A stretch of 64,000 nt of DNA from a virus: IMG/VR virus record IMGVR_UViG_3300010885_027635, positions 27,667 through 91,666 of that record, one strand, 5' to 3'. Under the pieces are notes generated by a model that saw only the letters and a list, made by a program, of their open reading frames with translations, was not told where the DNA came from and did not search any database. The translations under genes and the position numbers were made by a program. Shown piece after piece: positions 7,998-53,040 of this stretch. Position 1 is the first letter of the stretch; the number at the start of each line of letters is the position of its first letter.

Positions 7998-8916
7998 AAT
8001 ATTTAATTCAAAATATCCCATACTTGAAGCTTGTATGAACAAAGGTTCCAGTTTAGAGTTGGCTGTTGCTGTGCACCAAGCTGGTGGATATCCTAGTTTT
8101 TGTAGCTGGACTTATAATCGTCGCTTTGATCTTATGCAAAAAGAAATAGATCAATTTGTTGCTACAACAGGATCAAACTGCGTACATCTTAGCTTTGAGC
8201 TGGACGAATTACCAAATTTTGATATTTGCCATCGCATAGTAAAATCACATGACATTCCCACCATTGAAATTATTTACGGTGCCAGCGATTCTTATCGTGG
8301 GATCAAAAGTCGTTATACTGATATTGATCAAGCTGTACAAGACTGGGTAGGCCCTTTACACGAACACGGTACTCGAGTATTTAAAAGATTATACGAGCCC
8401 ATCGATGCTGATACCATGAAGAAAAATTTTATTGACGGCTTCTGTATCAAAGGCTTAGAATCTGCAGGGTTTGGTGGATATACTCCGGTCCGAGATTTAT
8501 TTTTAAAACAAAAAGAACTCACTCCAACTGCTATGCTGATTCCGTATGGTGGAGTCAGTACCAGTGCCCAAGTTAAAGATTATATAGACCTAGGTGCAGA
8601 AATAATAGCAGTTGGTACGGTACTAGCGTTGAGTGCAGAAAGTACAATTAAATTAGAAACCAAGCTGGCAGCAATCAAAGCCACTAGTAAAGACCTGGTT
8701 GAGTTTAAACACAACACCAGAAAACAAACTGCCTTGGAGTTCGAGCCATACACTGGACACGACGACTATAATCGTACCAAAGGATTGGTCAACGGTATGT
8801 GGAAAAAGAACAGCAACCAAGGGCATGTGTATTTTGGACACGGAATTGACCATGTCACTGAACTACTCACTTGTCAACAGATTATTCAAAATCTAACTGC
8901 GGATCTGTCGAGCTAA
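7990..8916 (+). CDS. Nitronate monooxygenase / FabK-like flavoprotein
   Basis: YPILEACM...LAVAVHQAGG, KGLESAG, YGGV, LGAEIIAVGT...ES. Confidence 0.7.
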   Translation: MSKIFNSKYPILEACMNKGSSLELAVAVHQAGGYPSFCSWTYNRRFDLMQKEIDQFVATTGSNCVHLSFELDELPNFDICHRIVKSHDIPTIEIIYGASDSYRGIKSRYTDIDQAVQDWVGPLHEHGTRVFKRLYEPIDADTMKKNFIDGFCIKGLESAGFGGYTPVRDLFLKQKELTPTAMLIPYGGVSTSAQVKDYIDLGAEIIAVGTVLALSAESTIKLETKLAAIKATSKDLVEFKHNTRKQTALEFEPYTGHDDYNRTKGLVNGMWKKNSNQGHVYFGHGIDHVTELLTCQQIIQNLTADLSS

Positions 8917-46530: not shown

Positions 46531-47544
46531 ATGAGTCTATTTAAAAAAGTAGCAGTATGTACCGATATCCACTTTGGCCTAAAATCAAATAGCCTACAAC
46601 ACAATCAAGATTGTAGTGATTTTATTGATTGGTTTATTGAAACGGCCCGAGCTAATGGATGCGAAACTGGCATGTTCCTTGGCGATTGGAGCCACCAACG
46701 TGCGGCTATAAACATGCAGACCTTGCAGTACAGTCTGCGTAGTTTAGAAAAGCTGTCAGCGGCATTTGATCGTTTTTATTTTATTCCAGGCAACCACGAT
46801 TTGTATTACCGTGACAAACGAGATATCTACAGTACTGAATGGGCTAAACATATCCCCAACATACAGATTGTCAATGATTGGTTCCAAGACGGCGATGTCA
46901 TAATCGCACCCTGGCTGGTGGGTGATGATCATAAACGTATTCCAAAAATGTCAGCCAAGTACATGTTTGGGCATTTTGAATTGCCACACTTTAAAATGAA
47001 TGCCATGGTAGAAATGCCAGACCACGGCGAAGTCAAGGTAGAAAGTTTTGGCGGTTTTGACAAGGTGTTTAGTGGGCACTTCCATTTACGACAACAGAAA
47101 AAGAATATCAACTACATTGGCAACTGCTTTCCACATAACTATGCCGACGCCGGCGATGCTGATCGTGGCATGATGATACTCGAGTGGGGAAGTGAGCCAG
47201 TGTATCATGCGTGGCCAAGACAACCCATGTATCGTGTGCTTAAATTAAGTCAGGTCATTGATTCGGCACCCAAAATACTTGTACCTAACATGCATGTTCG
47301 TGTAGAATTAGATATTGACATCAGCTACGAAGAAGCTAATTTTATCAAGGACACATTTGTTCGAGATTATAACTTAAAAGAAATGGCCTTGATCCCTGTT
47401 AAAAGTTCAGCTGTAGATTTAGACATGGCACCTGGTGAAGTCAAGTTTGAAAGTGTAGATCAGATTGTAACTGATCAACTAACCAATATTGAAAGTGAAT
47501 TTTACGATCCAAAACTATTGTTAAAGATCTATCAGAACCTATGA
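46531..47544 (+). CDS. gp47: Recombination endonuclease subunit gp47 (Mre11/SbcD-like)
   Basis: DIHFG, LGD, GNHD, GHFE and SGHFH metallophosphoesterase motifs. Confidence 0.9.
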   Translation: MSLFKKVAVCTDIHFGLKSNSLQHNQDCSDFIDWFIETARANGCETGMFLGDWSHQRAAINMQTLQYSLRSLEKLSAAFDRFYFIPGNHDLYYRDKRDIYSTEWAKHIPNIQIVNDWFQDGDVIIAPWLVGDDHKRIPKMSAKYMFGHFELPHFKMNAMVEMPDHGEVKVESFGGFDKVFSGHFHLRQQKKNINYIGNCFPHNYADAGDADRGMMILEWGSEPVYHAWPRQPMYRVLKLSQVIDSAPKILVPNMHVRVELDIDISYEEANFIKDTFVRDYNLKEMALIPVKSSAVDLDMAPGEVKFESVDQIVTDQLTNIESEFYDPKLLLKIYQNL

Positions 47545-49304
47545 TCCATATAAAAAACTTAACCGTAAAGAATTTTATGAGTGTGGGCAATAGCACACAA
47601 GCTATTGACTTTGATCGCAAGGACTTGACATTAGTGTTAGGTGAGAACTTGGATCTAGGCGGTGATGGCAGTCGTAACGGCACAGGTAAAACCACAATTA
47701 TCAATGCTCTCAGCTACAGCCTATACGGACAAGCACTCAGCAATATCCGCAAGGATAACCTTGTAAACAAAACCAACAATAAAAACATGTTGGTCAGTTT
47801 GGATTTCAGTGTGGGTGGCAAAGATTATCGGATTGAACGTGGACGTAAACCCAACGTGCTAAGATTCTTTGTAAACAATCAAGAACAAGTGGTCACAGAT
47901 GAAGCACAAGGTGATTCAAGAGAAACGCAAGATGCTATTGAGCAGACACTAGGCCTAAGTCATGACATGTTCAAACATATCCTGGCACTTAACACCTACA
48001 CAGAACCTTTCCTAAGTCTCAAAGCAAATGATCAACGCACTATCATTGAGCAGTTGTTAGGCATTACCATGTTGAGTGAACGTGCTGACAAGATCAAAGA
48101 ACACAATAGATCCACCAAAGAAGGCATTACACAAGAAGAATTTAGAATTCGGGCTGTTCAAGAAGCCAACAAGCGTATCGAAGAACAGATTGAATCATTG
48201 AAGCGTAGACAAACATTATGGGTCACCAAACATGGCGAAGATATCGCGGAACTTGAGAAAGCCCTCAAGGCGTTACAAAATATACAGATTGAAACAGAGA
48301 TCCAAGCTCACACGGATCACAAGGCATGGGATCAAAAGCGGAAGGATATCAATGAACTATCTGGTCAGATCTCGCGGATCAAATTGGATATTGGTCGGGA
48401 AGAAAAGTTGGCGGCCAAACTATCAAAAGAAATTGAAACGCTTGAAAATCATGAATGTCATACGTGCGGACAGGCCTTCCACGACAGTAAGCACGAACAA
48501 GTTTTGGAAAGCAAGCAGACGGAGTTGGCTACAGCTCGACAGAGTAGCTCGGAATACAGCACCCTGTTATCAGAGTTGGAGACTGCCCACACAGCCTTGG
48601 GCGTGTTAGGTAAACCACCTGTAATGTTTTATGACAAGGAATCAGATGCTATCCAGCATCAAGCTACTTTGAGTAATTTAGAACAACAGATCGCCACCAA
48701 ACACGCAGAAACAGATCCGTATGCAGAACAAATTACGGAAATGCAACAACAGGCCCTTCAGGAGATAACATATGACGCACTTAATGAACTTACTCGCTTA
48801 CAAGAGCATCAAGACTTCTTGCTCAAACTACTCACCAGCAAAGACAGCTTTATCCGTAAAAAGATTATTGAACAAAATCTTAGCTATCTAAATGCTCGAC
48901 TAACGCACTACCTAGATCGTGTAGGCTTGCCACACACAGTAGTGTTCCAAAATGACTTAACTGTCAGCATCGAAGAGCTAGGCCGTGAGCTGGACTTTGA
49001 TAACTTGAGTCGTGGTGAACGTAATAGACTAATCTTAAGTATGAGCTGGGCATTCAGAGATGTGTTTGAAAGCCTATACCAACCTATCAATCTGTTGTTT
49101 ATAGACGAAATGATCGACAACGGGTTGGATACGCAAGGTGTTGAAAATGCTCTAGCCTTGTTAAAACACATGAGCCGCGAACGACACAAATCAATTTGGC
49201 TAGTAAGCCACAGAGACGAGCTGGCTGGACGAGTTGAGAACATTCTTAAAGTAGTCAAAGAAGGTGGATTCACAAGTTACAACACGGATGTAGAAATTGC
49301 GTAG
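47541..49304 (+). CDS. gp46: Recombination ATPase gp46 (Rad50/SbcC-like)
   Basis: Walker A NGTGKTT, coiled coil with CHTC zinc hook, LSRGE signature, FIDE Walker B, VSH. Confidence 0.92.
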   Translation: MIHIKNLTVKNFMSVGNSTQAIDFDRKDLTLVLGENLDLGGDGSRNGTGKTTIINALSYSLYGQALSNIRKDNLVNKTNNKNMLVSLDFSVGGKDYRIERGRKPNVLRFFVNNQEQVVTDEAQGDSRETQDAIEQTLGLSHDMFKHILALNTYTEPFLSLKANDQRTIIEQLLGITMLSERADKIKEHNRSTKEGITQEEFRIRAVQEANKRIEEQIESLKRRQTLWVTKHGEDIAELEKALKALQNIQIETEIQAHTDHKAWDQKRKDINELSGQISRIKLDIGREEKLAAKLSKEIETLENHECHTCGQAFHDSKHEQVLESKQTELATARQSSSEYSTLLSELETAHTALGVLGKPPVMFYDKESDAIQHQATLSNLEQQIATKHAETDPYAEQITEMQQQALQEITYDALNELTRLQEHQDFLLKLLTSKDSFIRKKIIEQNLSYLNARLTHYLDRVGLPHTVVFQNDLTVSIEELGRELDFDNLSRGERNRLILSMSWAFRDVFESLYQPINLLFIDEMIDNGLDTQGVENALALLKHMSRERHKSIWLVSHRDELAGRVENILKVVKEGGFTSYNTDVEIA

Positions 49305-50166
49305 GGTTCGAGTTCTCCATGTTGAGCCTACTGACGTTTGTCAGGCAGCATGTCCCATGTGTGCTAGAGAGACCGATCCGAACTTTAATAAAAGTTCAAA
49401 GCATCATCTACGTGTGGAACATATTCAACAACATTTTACCGATCGAGCAATAGCACGATTAGACAAAATGTTTATGTGTGGCAACTATGGCGATCCTGCT
49501 GCAGGCTACTATACCATGGACATCTACAACTACTTTAGAAAAATCAATCCCAACATTGTGTTAGGCATGAATACCAATGGTGCTGTTCAAAGTACATTTT
49601 TTTGGCATGCCTTGGGCAAGTTATTCAATCAGCCAGAAGATTATTGTGTGTTTAGTATTGACGGTTTAGAGGATACCAATCAGATATATCGTAAAAATGT
49701 AAACTGGGCCAAGCTAATGAGCAACGCTCAAGCATACATTGCCGCTGGCGGAAATGCTCAATGGGACATGCTGGTGTACAAACACAACCAACATCAAGTA
49801 GATGAGTGCGAGCAGTTGGCCCGTGACATGGGATTCAAGTGGTTCCGTGCTAAAGTTAGCAAACGTGGGTTTACTGATCGATTGGAATTTCCTATAGGAT
49901 GGCAACAACCAGCAATCAAACAAGGGCCTATTAAATGTCATGCACTTGATGAAAAAAGTATGTACATTGATGCTCAAGGTCGATTAAGTCCGTGTTGCTG
50001 GATTGGAGCTACTCAACGAGACTTTGTTAAAGATGATTTAAAAACTGTAAAATTGACTTGGAAAACAGATACACCCAATTTGGTGTGCGCAAGTACTTGT
50101 TCTACAAACAAAAATAAAACGGTGTTCCAGGATCAATGGCAACGAGAGGTTGAGTTGAATGTTTAA
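49297..50166 (+). CDS. Radical SAM protein with C-terminal Twitch-like domain
   Basis: CQAACPMC, CGNYGDP, FSIDG; C-terminal C...PCC...CASTC. Confidence 0.88.
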   Translation: MRRVRVLHVEPTDVCQAACPMCARETDPNFNKSSKHHLRVEHIQQHFTDRAIARLDKMFMCGNYGDPAAGYYTMDIYNYFRKINPNIVLGMNTNGAVQSTFFWHALGKLFNQPEDYCVFSIDGLEDTNQIYRKNVNWAKLMSNAQAYIAAGGNAQWDMLVYKHNQHQVDECEQLARDMGFKWFRAKVSKRGFTDRLEFPIGWQQPAIKQGPIKCHALDEKSMYIDAQGRLSPCCWIGATQRDFVKDDLKTVKLTWKTDTPNLVCASTCSTNKNKTVFQDQWQREVELNV

Positions 50167-51853
50167 TTATACAGTGATTGACGAGTATCAATTAGAAATT
50201 ACTAGTTATTGCAATGCTGCTTGCCCGCAGTGCCCTCGTAACGATCACGGTATTGGTATCAATAAAAGAATGCCGTTGTGTCATCTCGATCGTCATGTTA
50301 TAGATCAAACCTTTACACCAGAACTATGTAATAGATTACGACAAGTATTTTTCTGTGGTAGCTATGGTGATCCAATTATGCATCCAGACTTCCTGGACAT
50401 ACTTCGAGACTTTAGATTAAAAAATCCAAAGCTATGGTTATACTTTCATACCAACGGCGGAGTGCATGATCCAGAGTATTGGGCAGAGATTGCACATATA
50501 ATGGCAGGCTATGGACAAATTGATTTTGGCATCGATGGGCTTGAAAACACTTTGCATTTGTATCGAAAAAATGTAAAATACAGCAAGGTTATTGAAAATG
50601 CCAAAGCGTTTATTAACGCAGGTGGACGAGCACAGTGGAATTTTATAGTGTTTGGTCATAACGAAGCCGAAGTTGAAAAAGTAAAACAATTGGGCAATGA
50701 GCTAGGGTTTTTTAATGTATTAATTAGAAAAACTGGAAGATTTTTAAATCATAGGACGTTAGAAGAAATACCGCTGTGGCCGGTTAACAACGGATTTGCA
50801 ATTGAGCCCCCAACAAATCCAGAATATCGCAATCAAAGTATTATGTTTTTGCCCGACTTAAAAAAACAGTATGGCAATATTAAAGAATACTTTAATACTA
50901 CAAAGATCAACTGTGATGCACTGTTAGGAAAAAAGGTAGTTGTTACAGCCGAAGGATTGGTGTTGCCTTGTAATTTTTTTACACATAATTTGTACGATCG
51001 AAGATTCTATGAAGAAGGTGTATTACCAGAATCCAACGAGCTTAGTAAAGTTGACGGAAAAAATCAAGTCAGAACATTTTTAGAATCGTATAATTTAGAT
51101 AGTTTTAATATTAACCTACACAGTCTTGAAGAAATATTTAACAACCCTATGTGGGGAGATTTAGTTGAAAGTTGGAATAAAACATTGGATAACGGACGCT
51201 TGTTTGAGTGTTCGATGACTTGTGGATCAAAATTCACCAAGGTCTGGGATCAAGGAGGAAATAAAAAAATTATGAAATATATGATTACTGGCGGCAACCG
51301 CGGGCTAGGTGCAAAATTTGTTGATCACTTTAACGGAGATAGTTATAGTCGTAGCAATGGTTACGACATTACTAAAGATATAGATAAACTTGCTATAAAA
51401 AGTTTAGACTATGATGTGTTTATAAACAATGCTTTTGATGGGCCATTTCAAGAAGAGTGGGCCAATTTTGGACAGGTTAAGTTGTTATTTGCTGTGGCCG
51501 AACTGTGGTCCAAAGAAAACAAAACAGGATATATTATTAATATTGGCAGTTCAGGAAGTGAAAATACAGTTGCTCCTATTCCTAGCTTTGAAACTTATCG
51601 CGTTAGTAAAACAGCATTAAAAGAACATAGTCGTCAATGGACTCGAGCATTCAAAGAAAATCGAGTGCTATTTAAAACCAGTTTGTTAACTCTGGATCGT
51701 ATAGATACAGAATTGTCTCGTAGTCGTGCAAGCTGGACTGGTAATGGACTTAATACAACAGATATCTGTTCTTACATTGAGCTAATTACTAACACTCAAT
51801 CAAATACATGCATTGAAGAAATTGTATCGTGGGTGAATTTTGAACATAACTAA
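50159..51853 (+). CDS. Radical SAM protein fused to C-terminal short-chain dehydrogenase (SDR)
   Basis: CNAACPQC and CGSYGDP; then MITGGNRGLG, FINNA, INIGS and YRVSK (YxxxK). Confidence 0.85.
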   Translation: MFNYTVIDEYQLEITSYCNAACPQCPRNDHGIGINKRMPLCHLDRHVIDQTFTPELCNRLRQVFFCGSYGDPIMHPDFLDILRDFRLKNPKLWLYFHTNGGVHDPEYWAEIAHIMAGYGQIDFGIDGLENTLHLYRKNVKYSKVIENAKAFINAGGRAQWNFIVFGHNEAEVEKVKQLGNELGFFNVLIRKTGRFLNHRTLEEIPLWPVNNGFAIEPPTNPEYRNQSIMFLPDLKKQYGNIKEYFNTTKINCDALLGKKVVVTAEGLVLPCNFFTHNLYDRRFYEEGVLPESNELSKVDGKNQVRTFLESYNLDSFNINLHSLEEIFNNPMWGDLVESWNKTLDNGRLFECSMTCGSKFTKVWDQGGNKKIMKYMITGGNRGLGAKFVDHFNGDSYSRSNGYDITKDIDKLAIKSLDYDVFINNAFDGPFQEEWANFGQVKLLFAVAELWSKENKTGYIINIGSSGSENTVAPIPSFETYRVSKTALKEHSRQWTRAFKENRVLFKTSLLTLDRIDTELSRSRASWTGNGLNTTDICSYIELITNTQSNTCIEEIVSWVNFEHN

Positions 51854-51859
51854 TAGTCC

Positions 51860-52288
51860 ATGGTATGGTTGTACGAAAACACTCAAATTCAAGAACTACC
51901 CGAAGATTGTGTCGGATTTGTTTATTTGATCACAAATAACATTTCTGGCAGAAAGTATATTGGAAAAAAATTAGCAAAATTTAGTAAAACCTCATACAAA
52001 GTAGTAAAATTAAAGAACGGCAACAAAAAACGCAAGAAAATTAAGAGCAAAATAGATTCAGACTGGCAGCTATACTATGGAAGCAACGATCAACTCAATA
52101 AAGACATTGCAGAGCTAGGCTCAGACAACTTCACAAGAGAAATATTATTTTATTGCAACTCAAAGGCCGCGTGTAGTTACGTAGAAGCTAGAGAACAATT
52201 TAATCATAGAGTATTGGAATCAGACGACTACTATAACGGACAAATAGTGTGCCGTATACACGGTAGTCACATAAAAAACAAAATTTAG
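51860..52288 (+). CDS. Minimal GIY-YIG (Seg-like) nuclease-fold protein
   Basis: GFVYLITN...KYIGKK, YYGS, FTREIL, conserved E (VEAREQ) and YYN; only 142 aa, with no C-terminal DNA-binding domain. Confidence 0.75.
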   Translation: MVWLYENTQIQELPEDCVGFVYLITNNISGRKYIGKKLAKFSKTSYKVVKLKNGNKKRKKIKSKIDSDWQLYYGSNDQLNKDIAELGSDNFTREILFYCNSKAACSYVEAREQFNHRVLESDDYYNGQIVCRIHGSHIKNKI

Positions 52289-52289
52289 A

Positions 52290-52700
52290 TAGGCAGCTTT
52301 ACTGACTCTGCGATAGATGTTTGATCTATCCCCATCGAGGAACGGTGCAATACCCGGTCTAGAACTTTGGGCGTCAAAGGCAATTGCTAACTTAAGGCAA
52401 CAAATGGTTTGGGCAACGTTGAAAAAGATACGACCCATGCTCGTAGGACTTGGATTTATTATCGGGTCACTAGGGTTCCGTTGATATGTGAAGCTTGAGT
52501 AGGGGGTACCGGTCAACCGCCTCCGTGTATGGTGTACATACAATCTCATTATAATAAATGACAGCTACAACTCGGATAATGTAGAAGTCAGTTCACCGTG
52601 CATACGGTGAATTGTGACCGCATAATCTGGATAATGCTAAAGAAAAACAATCATGTGTGAGCTTTAGCGAAACACATAGATTAGCGTAGCTAATCTTTTA
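52290..52700 (+). ncRNA. Putative large structured non-coding RNA (~410 nt)
   Basis: Largest gap without a credible ORF in the window; about 10 hairpins plus long-range helices (52301-07/52586-92; 52352-58/52461-67; 52341-45/52478-82); ends in a terminator; strand inferred from the upstream gene and terminator. Confidence 0.6.
52678..52700 (+). terminator. Intrinsic terminator
   Basis: AGATTAGC-GTA-GCTAATCT followed by TTTA, between convergent transcription units. Confidence 0.65.
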
Positions 52701-52707
52701 ACATCAA

Positions 52708-53040
52708 TCAGAATGTATCAGGCCAATCTCGAAACAAGGCATGTTGAATGTCTCCTGCAACAAACTGATTGAAGCTTTTGTGTTTTGTCTCAAGCTCACC
52801 TTCAAGTGGAGCAACACGTTTAAAAGCCGAGTCCATTTGACCCATATCTTTGAACTCCATCAGTATCATCCATTCAGGCATGTCAGCAATACTACGGAAG
52901 CCCATTTTACATCTAGTAATTCTGTATGATTCCATTTTGCCTTCTGTGATCAAATGCTCAAAGAAACTTTTCATTCCATTGACCCAATCAATGTCCGTGA
53001 TGTCGCCTTCTTTGTTTGCCCAAATTGTATACAGGTCCAT
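52708..53040 (-). CDS. Dimeric alpha/beta-barrel-like protein (DUF6614-like)
   Basis: YRITRCKMGF...PEWMILMEF..M.Q.D.AF, ALFRDWPD; family recalled from pattern only. Confidence 0.5.
   Translation of the reverse strand: MDLYTIWANKEGDITDIDWVNGMKSFFEHLITEGKMESYRITRCKMGFRSIADMPEWMILMEFKDMGQMDSAFKRVAPLEGELETKHKSFNQFVAGDIQHALFRDWPDTF

What the first reader, a model, noticed from the sequence alone, without database searches (positions are those of the whole stretch)
51860..52700. Minimal GIY-YIG nuclease followed by a ~410-nt structured RNA: candidate ribonucleoprotein system
Seen in sequence: most genes here overlap or abut, yet the 142-aa GIY-YIG gene is followed directly by about 410 nt without a credible ORF. 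The stretch is full of helices. Hairpins: GATAGAT/ATCTATC (52312-30), CTTTG/CAAAG (52365-79), TTGCT/GGCAA (52384-400), GGGGGT..GGTCAACC..GCCTCC (52502-24), TGTATG/CATACA (52526-42), TCATT/AATGA (52546-61), TTCACCGT/ACGGTGAA (52592-611), ATGTGT/ACACAT (52653-77). Nested long-range pairs: ACCCGGT/ATCGGGT (52352-58/52461-67) inside AACGG/CCGTT. GAGT/ACTC (52497-500/52570-73) closes a multi-way junction. A perfect 7-bp ACTGACT/AGTCAGT helix (52301-07/52586-92) closes a ~290-nt domain, and a terminator ends the region. The protein is a bare catalytic fold with a lysine-rich insertion (KVVKLKNGNKKRKKIKSK). Established: GIY-YIG homing endonucleases such as I-TevI depend on appended DNA-binding domains for specificity. 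Inference: the RNA may supply scaffold or targeting function, giving an RNA-associated nuclease analogous to (not homologous with) the OMEGA systems. It could instead be an independent large phage ncRNA. It does not match the RNase P, tmRNA or group I/II hallmarks I can recognise.
Basis: partly seen in the sequence, partly recalled or inferred. Interest (0 to 1): 0.88.

Follow-up and report, generated by a model that had tools for sequence, protein, structure and literature searches.

The report
Twin-box structured RNA behind phage nuclease gene
The gene-free 410 bases behind a small GIY-YIG nuclease gene of this uncultured giant T4-like lake phage encode a real, pseudoknotted non-coding RNA; it is an uncatalogued front-end variant of the barely studied Polynucleobacter-1 RNA, its job is unknown, and nothing shows that it guides the nuclease.

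Summary
The gap at 52289-52700 (+) encodes a real RNA. On 95 non-redundant relatives, 87 proposed pairs are 94% paired, against 83% in shuffles. 56 pairs change on both sides, and G.U outnumbers A.C 746:96, which fixes the + strand. The fold has 13 helices, a covariation-backed pseudoknot, two hairpins usually capped by GNRA tetraloops, and a terminator. Two 7-nt "twin boxes" (52574-80, 52629-35) are identical to each other in 89/95 sequences across at least 8 variants.

The window RNA has no Rfam match. Its 3' half is shared with sister RNAs whose 5' domain is Rfam RF01718 (Polynucleobacter-1, up to 119 bits). It is therefore a 5'-domain-swapped member of a longer, uncatalogued family.

In phages the RNA sits behind the 142-aa GIY-YIG gene in nearly all of more than 250 loci. 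All of these share one block: gp46-like, GIY, RNA, then baseplate-hub genes.

The RNA also occurs in four freshwater bacterial MAGs (labelled Pseudomonadota) where no SegE-type GIY-YIG was found. Two phage loci have the RNA but no GIY gene. Distant GIY homologues lack the RNA at the loci examined.

I found no guide-like segment and no RNA-protein coevolution. The guided-nuclease idea is unsupported but not excluded.

This scan found the same RNA before on other genomes (seven earlier notes). Function is unknown.

The parts
51860..52288 (+). 142-aa stand-alone GIY-YIG nuclease gene (SegE_GIY-YIG family, phrog_447). It is a catalytic fold plus a lysine-rich beta-hairpin, with no DNA-binding domain.
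   Evidence: Pfam PF19835 E 1.5e-32 over profile positions 1-123. phrog_447 E 3.5e-37. AF2 model pLDDT 82. The four best VIA hits are all GIY-YIG nucleases: I-TevI Z 8.3, PD-T4-3 Z 7.4, UvrC N-terminal domain Z 5.0, T4 EndoII Z 4.8.
52289..52700 (+). The whole structured ncRNA, about 410 nt. It starts at or just after the GIY stop codon and ends at the terminator U-tract.
   Evidence: 76-90% nt identity in about 40 relatives. Alignment A2 of 95 sequences. 94.2% of cells paired against 83.2% in shuffles; covariation score 0.313 against 0.123 (0/500); slid controls at most 0.067. G.U 746 against A.C 96.
52304..52468 (+). Type-1 5' domain. P1 52304-06/52373-75; P2 52312-18/52324-30; P3 52331-34/52368-71; P4 52339-45/52354-60; P5 52384-88/52396-400; P6 52410-13/52434-37 and 52417-21/52429-32; P7 52447-53/52462-68. 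It replaces the RF01718 domain of sister RNAs.
   Evidence: Per-pair counts, for example 52304:52375 GC80/CG14 and 52410:52437 UA49/GC35/CG8. No RF01718 match here or in six type-1 loci.
52469..52495 (+). Linker that is invariant within type 1. It contains the 5' strand of the pseudoknot (GUUGA, 52480-84).
   Evidence: Invariant columns in A2. The pseudoknot helix is 99.5% paired, and 3 of its 5 pairs change on both sides across RNA types.
52496..52548 (+). Three-way junction. P8 52496-99/52545-48; P9 52502-06/52520-24 plus 52510-11/52518-19, whose loop UCAAC (52513-17) is the 3' strand of the pseudoknot; P10 52526-30/52538-42, usually GNRA-capped in relatives.
   Evidence: for example 52529:52539 AU44/GC20/UA16/CG10 and 52502:52524 GC74/AU21. 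Core model R1 scores the window at 93 bits.
52574..52580 (+). Twin box A (GGAUAAU), inside the motif CUC-GGAUAAU-G.
   Evidence: Identical to box B in 89/95 type-1 sequences across at least 8 different 7-mers, and in all 15 type-2 sequences checked.
52591..52612 (+). P11, a conserved 9-bp hairpin between the twin boxes.
   Evidence: 97.5% paired; 52598:52605 GC87/CG8.
52629..52635 (+). Twin box B (GGAUAAU), inside the motif UCU-GGAUAAU-G.
52653..52677 (+). P12 hairpin with a GA/GAA internal loop. Its tip is usually a GNRA tetraloop in relatives.
   Evidence: All 6 outer pairs change on both sides. The motif GAUGAGCG..AGCGAA is kept in type 2 and in the bacterial copies.
52678..52700 (+). P13, an intrinsic-terminator-like hairpin (52678-85/52689-96) followed by UUUU.
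   Evidence: 6 of 7 pairs change on both sides. The U-tract is visible in the sequence. The scan tool listed the same palindromic hairpin, but on the minus strand.

Best explanation
52289-52700 encodes a stand-alone, compactly folded non-coding RNA.

Shown:
- It belongs to a family of about 400-nt RNAs that share a 3' domain. That domain comprises a pseudoknot between a single strand and the P9 loop, a three-way junction, two identical 7-nt boxes flanking a hairpin, a hairpin with a GA-type internal loop, and a terminator.
- The 5' domain comes in at least two interchangeable forms.
- In most relatives the 5' domain is the Rfam Polynucleobacter-1 motif (RF01718). In this window it is a different, uncatalogued domain.

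Inferred:
- The RNA is transcribed by read-through from the GIY-YIG gene, as the last element of the gp46-like/GIY transcription unit, and stops at its own terminator.
- It then acts in trans, independently of the nuclease.
- The two identical boxes most likely bind two copies of one partner. That partner could be a dimeric protein or two identical complementary nucleic-acid sites, as in a decoy or sponge, or the boxes could mediate self-association.
- The nuclease is a syntenic neighbour, not an obligate partner.

The actual function is unknown.
For: - Structure: 87 pairs are 94.2% paired against 83.2% in shuffles. 56 pairs change on both sides. Slid controls collapse.
- Pseudoknot: 99.5% paired, with compensatory changes between RNA types.
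- Strand: G.U 746 against A.C 96.
- Family: the nhmmer profile and model R1 link type 1, type 2/3 and the bacterial copies. RF01718 matches the 5' domain of type 2/3 and the bacterial copies at 46-119 bits, but not the window.
- Independence from GIY: in the MAG contig L310 the RNA sits in a 1.4-kb gap beside Fic/antitoxin and integrase genes. PF19835 finds no match in any of the four RNA-bearing MAGs, while the control G000 rings.
- Two phage loci lack the GIY gene. In L144 a PDDEXK nuclease gene sits in its place.
- Genes are inserted between GIY and the RNA in about 18% of loci.
- No twin-box/protein coevolution beyond clade signal.
- Twin boxes are identical in 89/95 sequences.
- Contigs from four freshwater metatranscriptome libraries cover the GIY gene and the RNA, and one bridges the stop codon at 52193-52441.
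Against: - In phages the adjacency to GIY is close to universal. It holds in about 105 of 119 RNA-seeded loci. Most exceptions are truncated contigs, and about 18 of the 105 carry inserted genes between the two.
- It also holds in 72 of 77 GIY-seeded loci, and in 96 of 96 loci of a third core variant, down to 53% GIY identity. This could reflect function rather than synteny.
- No transcript ends, promoter or expression level were measured. The RNA-library contigs cannot exclude DNA carry-over.
- The partner of the twin boxes is unidentified.
- The bacterial copies are in MAG contigs that may themselves be mobile elements, possibly with an unrecognised nuclease.
Confidence: 0.58

Rival explanations
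1. RNP with the nuclease. The RNA binds the minimal GIY-YIG protein and supplies scaffold or target recognition, perhaps through the twin boxes.
For: The RNA starts at the GIY stop codon and lies on the same strand. The pair is kept in more than 250 phage loci across three RNA subtypes and 53-95% GIY identity. The protein has no DNA-binding domain but carries a lysine-rich hairpin. In L144 a different nuclease (PDDEXK_15) occupies the GIY position. One RNA-library contig bridges the gene and the RNA.
Against: All phage loci share one syntenic block, so the co-occurrence amounts to a single observation. The RNA is present in four MAGs with no PF19835 match. GIY homologues in Melnitz, phiN3 and a cyanophage lack the RNA at those loci. 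Other genes are inserted between the two in about 18% of loci. The boxes are only 7-11 nt long, and no coevolution with the protein was seen. T4 EndoII (136 aa, PDB 2WSH) is, from established knowledge, a GIY-YIG nuclease that works without an extra domain or RNA; it appears among the fold matches at Z 4.8.
Confidence: 0.15
2. Cis-acting 3' element. The structured tail stabilises or regulates the upstream gp46-like/GIY mRNA, or insulates the convergent junction with the baseplate-hub genes.
For: The RNA is always the last element of the + strand unit and faces convergent genes. It ends in a terminator. Weinberg et al. 2010 scored Polynucleobacter-1 as probably cis-regulatory (PMC2864571).
Against: Four hundred nucleotides with a pseudoknot, invariant single strands, GNRA loops and twin boxes is far more than a stabiliser needs. 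The upstream neighbour varies while the RNA stays the same. In the MAG contig the nearest upstream gene with family support is divergent, so no gene is read into the RNA. In phages no + strand gene follows it, so 5'-UTR control is excluded.
Confidence: 0.12
3. Homing-target explanation of the adjacency. The conserved RNA gene is the cleavage or landing site of free-standing nuclease genes, as T4 segB sits in the tRNA cluster (from memory).
For: A phrog_314 homing-endonuclease gene is inserted between GIY and the RNA in L172. A PDDEXK nuclease replaces GIY in L144. The junction is an insertion hot spot.
Against: The GIY gene is nearly fixed in these phages, not sporadic. It lacks a DNA-binding domain and is well conserved, with 85% mean column identity.
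Confidence: 0.05
4. Not an RNA: a small-protein gene, a DNA-level element, or chance structure.
For: A 55-aa ORF lies at 52317-52484. The single-sequence fold is no better than shuffles.
Against: Indels of 1-5 nt occur between close relatives. Compensatory pair changes are massive. The G.U over A.C bias points to RNA on the + strand.
Confidence: 0.01

Closest known systems
Polynucleobacter-1 RNA motif (Rfam RF01718; Weinberg et al. 2010, Genome Biol 11:R31, PMC2864571)
   Same: Sister RNAs at the same position behind the same GIY gene match RF01718 at 74-119 bits. The bacterial copies match at 46 bits. They share with the window the whole 3' domain: pseudoknot, P8-P9 junction, twin boxes, P12 and terminator. 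The habitat also agrees: Burkholderiales and fresh water in the paper, and lake or river samples here.
   Different: The Rfam model covers only a 141-nt 5' domain. The window has a different 5' domain with no RF01718 match, even at E up to 10. The shared 3' domain of about 230 nt is not part of the Rfam model. No function is known for either.
Large ornate phage-borne or mobile-element ncRNAs of unknown function (GOLLD, ROOL, HEARO; from memory)
   Same: Size class, complex fold with a pseudoknot and GNRA loops, location on phages and mobile elements, unknown function.
   Different: No Rfam match to any of them. This RNA is shorter than GOLLD and ROOL. The twin-box feature is not described for them, to my knowledge.
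OMEGA/IscB-TnpB guide RNAs
   Same: A structured RNA directly 3' of a small nuclease gene.
   Different: The nuclease fold differs: GIY-YIG, not RuvC/HNH. There is no variable guide at either end and no transposon ends. The RNA also occurs without the nuclease.
T4 Seg-type free-standing GIY-YIG endonucleases and T4 EndoII
   Same: The protein matches PF19835 and has a GIY-YIG fold. It is a stand-alone protein of about 140 aa, like EndoII.
   Different: It lacks the C-terminal DNA-binding domain of Seg proteins and is nearly fixed rather than sporadic. It shows no sequence match to EndoII, only a fold match at Z 4.8.

Membership tests
Rfam RF01718 Polynucleobacter-1 | Score at or above the 37-bit gathering threshold of the 141-nt covariance model. 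| tested here: not met
   No hit on the whole window at gathering, none at E up to 10 on 51700-52900, and none on L202, which holds the window's RNA. Six other type-1 loci also give no hit.
Extended Polynucleobacter-1 family (long form, defined here) | Shared 3' domain: pseudoknot strand CCGUUG, P8/P9 with GGUAC.GG.CAACCGCC, twin boxes, P12 and terminator. | tested here: met
   Model R1 was built without the bacterial copies. It scores the window at 93 bits, L269 at 59, and L310, L326 and L327 at 41-46. The nhmmer profile of type 1 hits type-2 loci over positions of about 216-432. Those same loci carry RF01718 just upstream.
OMEGA-like RNA-guided nuclease | A variable guide segment at one end of the RNA, with the RNA found only together with its nuclease. 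| tested here: not met
   The 3' end is a covarying terminator hairpin, and the 5' end is a short variable leader running into P1. The RNA is found in MAGs without the nuclease family.
OMEGA-like RNA-guided nuclease | Physical RNA-protein complex and RNA-dependent cleavage. | not testable with these tools
   Needs a pull-down and a nuclease assay.
GIY-YIG nuclease superfamily | GIY-YIG catalytic domain and fold. | tested here: met
   PF19835 E 1.5e-32. The four top structural matches are GIY-YIG nucleases. Motif residues are invariant in 28 homologues.
Seg-type homing endonuclease | An appended DNA-binding domain and a sporadic distribution. | tested here: not met
   The 142 aa equal the domain plus a beta-hairpin. 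The gene is present in nearly all related loci. Longer forms were not searched for.
T4 EndoII (DenA)-like | Specific similarity to PDB 2WSH. | tested here: inconclusive
   No phmmer hit. VIA Z 4.8, rmsd 3.1 over 76 residues, ranking below I-TevI and PD-T4-3.
tRNA / tmRNA | Detected by ARAGORN or by Rfam tmRNA models. | tested here: not met
   No gene found in the window. No Rfam hit.
Intrinsic terminator | A G+C-containing hairpin followed by a U-tract on the RNA strand. | tested here: met
   52678-96 hairpin plus UUUU. The stem covaries.

The most novel reading that the evidence does not exclude
The RNA and the minimal GIY-YIG protein form an RNP. In it, the two identical 7-11-nt boxes base-pair with two identical sites on a target nucleic acid and position a dimeric or tetrameric nuclease. 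This would be an RNA-directed GIY-YIG system, with the bacterial copies served by another, unrecognised partner.
Probability: 0.08. Interest if true: 0.9.

Novelty: new variant of a known kind. Interest (0 to 1): 0.5.

Why it matters
- It shows that the 141-nt Polynucleobacter-1 motif of 2010 is only the front end of a roughly 400-nt pseudoknotted RNA.
- That RNA is very common in uncultured giant T4-like lake phages and also occurs in freshwater bacterial MAGs.
- The front end is exchangeable. This window carries a version that Rfam cannot see.
- The two boxes that always change in step are an unusual, testable clue to a partner that binds twice.
- If that partner turned out to be the neighbouring nuclease, this would be a new kind of RNA-directed enzyme. 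Present evidence points away from that.

Tried and rejected
- Rfam on the window, at gathering and at E up to 10: nothing relevant.
- Single-sequence folding: not better than shuffles.
- ARAGORN: no tRNA or tmRNA.
- blastn of the window region against 50,697 isolate phage records: no match.
- blastn of the bacterial copy against phage and plasmid records: no match.
- Scan of GTDB contigs with a 17-mer core pattern: about 120 hits, nearly all chance. Only L269, L310 and perhaps L303 survived nhmmer.
- A stack search over all column pairs was too noisy to give further long-range helices.
- Looked for a column complementary to the twin boxes: none found. A partial pairing of box A with 52620-27 has mixed support and was left out of the model.
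- Coevolution between the twin boxes and GIY residues: not above clade signal.
- T4 EndoII identity: inconclusive.
- Literature: no paper on this RNA apart from the table entry in PMC2864571.
- The 2023 catalogue of viral structured RNAs (PMC10690425) may list it, but its supplements are not held.
- RNA-library contigs show presence only. They give no transcript ends or levels, and the uncovered flanks prove nothing.
- The inserted ORFs of 258-356 aa between GIY and the RNA have no Pfam or PHROG match.

Full report
**The locus**

The window is part of a 91.7-kb IMG/VR virus record that CheckV rates 27% complete. Related contigs reach 337-347 kb. It is therefore an uncultured giant T4-like phage. 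DNA runs holding the stretch are freshwater and lake metagenomes.

The + strand carries four genes in order:
- a 587-aa ORF (47541-49304) that I read as a gp46/Rad50-like protein, from its Walker-type N-terminus and long coiled coil; its family was not checked
- two radical-SAM genes
- the 142-aa GIY-YIG gene (51860-52288)

A 419-nt stretch with no conserved ORF follows. After it come convergent minus-strand genes: DUF6614, then further on a 62-aa ORF and a 280-aa baseplate-hub protein (phrog_150).

**The protein**

It matches Pfam SegE_GIY-YIG over the whole profile (E 1.5e-32) and phrog_447, a family of about 148 aa misnamed "NAD synthetase".

tblastn finds the family in 254 isolate phage records, with matches covering about 92-98% of the 142-aa query. 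These include cyanophages, Methylophilales phage Melnitz and Sinorhizobium phages.

The AF2 model (pLDDT 82) is a GIY-YIG fold. The lysine-rich stretch forms a long beta-hairpin. The four best structural matches are all GIY-YIG nucleases: I-TevI catalytic domain Z 8.3, PD-T4-3 Z 7.4, UvrC N-terminal domain Z 5.0 and T4 EndoII Z 4.8. Motif residues are invariant in 28 homologues.

**Is the RNA real?**

The single sequence folds no better than shuffles (z -1.45 and -1.24), and Rfam finds nothing. Comparison with relatives settles the question.
- A protein-seeded search gave 80 IMG/VR loci. The gap is 76-90% identical in about 40 of them.
- A scan for an invariant 23-mer gave at least 119 more loci.
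- I aligned 95 sequences that are less than 95% identical to each other (A2).
- On A2 my 87-pair model is 94.2% paired, against 83.2 +/- 0.2% in shuffles.
- 56 pairs change on both sides.
- The covariation score is 0.313 against 0.123 (0 of 500 shuffles reach it). Sliding the partners by 1-3 columns drops it to at most 0.067.
- G.U pairs outnumber A.C pairs 746 to 96, which fixes the + strand.
- Indels of 1-5 nt between close relatives rule out the 55-aa ORF.

**Anatomy, in window coordinates**

- 5' domain: P1-P7 (52304-52468).
- A linker that is invariant within type 1 (52469-95).
- P8 closes a junction that contains P9 and P10.
- The linker strand GUUGA (52480-84) pairs with the P9 loop UCAAC (52513-17).
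- This pseudoknot is invariant within type 1 but changes compensatorily in other types: GUUGU/ACAAC, GUCAU/AUGAC and GUCGG/CCGAC. It is 99.5% paired, and 3 of its 5 pairs change on both sides.
- Then box A, hairpin P11 and box B, followed by an A-rich variable linker.
- P12 has a GA/GAA internal loop.
- P13 is the terminator.
- P10 and P12 are usually capped by GNRA tetraloops in relatives.

Two hairpins and all four long-range pairings do not.

**Twin boxes**

The 7-mers at 52574-80 and 52629-35 are identical to each other in 89 of 95 type-1 sequences. At least eight different 7-mers occur, among them AGAUGAU, GGAUAAU, AGAUAAU, GGAUGAU, AGAUGAA, AGAUCAA, ACAUGAA and GGAUGAG. The boxes are also identical in all 15 type-2 sequences checked and in the bacterial copy (ACAUAAA twice).

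No complementary covarying column was found. Parallel change of this kind points to two sites read by one kind of partner. This is unexplained.

**Family**

An nhmmer profile of A2 hits about 35 further GIY-seeded loci over its 3' half only. Their first roughly 240 nt differ from the window.

Earlier notes of this scan on other genomes named Polynucleobacter-1 as the closest known RNA, and I tested that. RF01718 matches the 5' domain directly behind the GIY stop codon in every type-2 and type-3 locus tried (74-119 bits) and in L057. It does not match this window or six other type-1 loci.

The Rfam model therefore describes only the front end of a longer RNA, and the window carries a swapped front end. 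The only paper that mentions the motif lists it in a table as probably an RNA, probably cis-regulatory, from Burkholderiales and fresh water or estuary (PMC2864571).

**Link to the nuclease**

In phages the link is almost absolute.
- About 105 of 119 RNA-seeded loci have the GIY gene upstream. Roughly 18 of these carry inserted genes in between, and most loci without GIY are truncated contigs.
- 72 of 77 GIY-seeded loci have the RNA by nhmmer. One of the misses, L057, still has the RF01718 domain.
- 96 of 96 loci of a third core variant have the GIY gene, down to 53% GIY identity.

All of these share one syntenic block: gp46-like, optional genes, GIY, RNA, then convergent hub genes. The co-occurrence is therefore not independent evidence of a functional link.

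Observations against an obligate partnership:
- About 18% of loci have other ORFs between GIY and the RNA. One is a phrog_314 homing endonuclease.
- L144 has a PDDEXK_15 nuclease and no GIY gene in 12.8 kb upstream. L160 also lacks GIY.
- GIY homologues in Melnitz, phiN3 and a cyanophage are followed by small ORFs and give no R1 or nhmmer hit at those loci.
- The RNA occurs in a 21-kb contig of a river MAG labelled Pseudomonadota. There it lies in a 1.4-kb gap between DUF6876/DUF6641 genes and Fic/antitoxin and integrase genes.
- Model R1, built without these bacterial copies, scores them at 41-46 bits.
- By blastn the RNA is found in 4 of the 61 related genomes searched. None of the four has a PF19835 match, while the control G000 rings.
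- Twin-box states do not coevolve with GIY residues beyond clade markers.

**Expression**

Contigs from four freshwater metatranscriptome libraries cover the GIY gene and the RNA up to about 52565. One contig bridges 52193-52441. This fits co-transcription. It shows neither transcript ends nor levels, and it does not exclude DNA carry-over.

**Verdict**

The RNA is real. It is an uncatalogued 5'-domain variant of a longer Polynucleobacter-1 family. It most likely works on its own, while being transcribed behind the nuclease gene. The guided-nuclease reading has no positive support but is not excluded. This scan had already found the same RNA on other genomes (seven notes), and their main points were re-tested here and hold.

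Noticed in passing
window 49297-51853: Two adjacent radical-SAM genes lie between the gp46-like gene and the GIY gene. The second is fused to a short-chain-dehydrogenase-like C-terminus. This slot varies among relatives: the genes are present in about 45 of 76 loci.
   Followed up: partly
L144:2296-2805 (-): In one related phage contig a PDDEXK_15 (PF24608) nuclease gene, not the GIY-YIG gene, sits directly upstream of the RNA.
   Followed up: partly
L172:908-1636 (+): A 243-aa phrog_314 homing-endonuclease gene is inserted between the GIY gene and the RNA. Four other ORF families of unknown function (258-356 aa) occupy the same slot in other contigs, and each ends at the same distance from the RNA core.
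   Followed up: partly
L310:3644-3696 (G001:C23): In the bacterial MAG contig the last hairpins of the RNA are repeated about 60 nt downstream at 89% identity. The repeat lies next to Fic/antitoxin and two tyrosine-integrase genes. It could be an att-like duplication of an integrated element.
   Followed up: no
L034, L039, L054, L078 (P10 position): Some type-2 RNAs replace the short P10 region with a 45-60-nt insert made of tandem UAUAG-containing repeats.
   Followed up: no
L330 (RNA about 8230-8650): A lineage with 53-57% GIY identity has a shorter RNA that lacks box A and hairpin P11 and keeps only box B.
   Followed up: no
L336:603-674 (-): A related phage contig also carries a freshwater-2 RNA (RF02980, 55 bits).
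   Followed up: no
window 52556-52581 and 52612-52636: The twin boxes lie in longer look-alike units (AUGAC/GUGAC, then 8-9 nt, then CUC/UCU plus the box). This suggests an internal duplication of box plus hairpin.
   Followed up: partly
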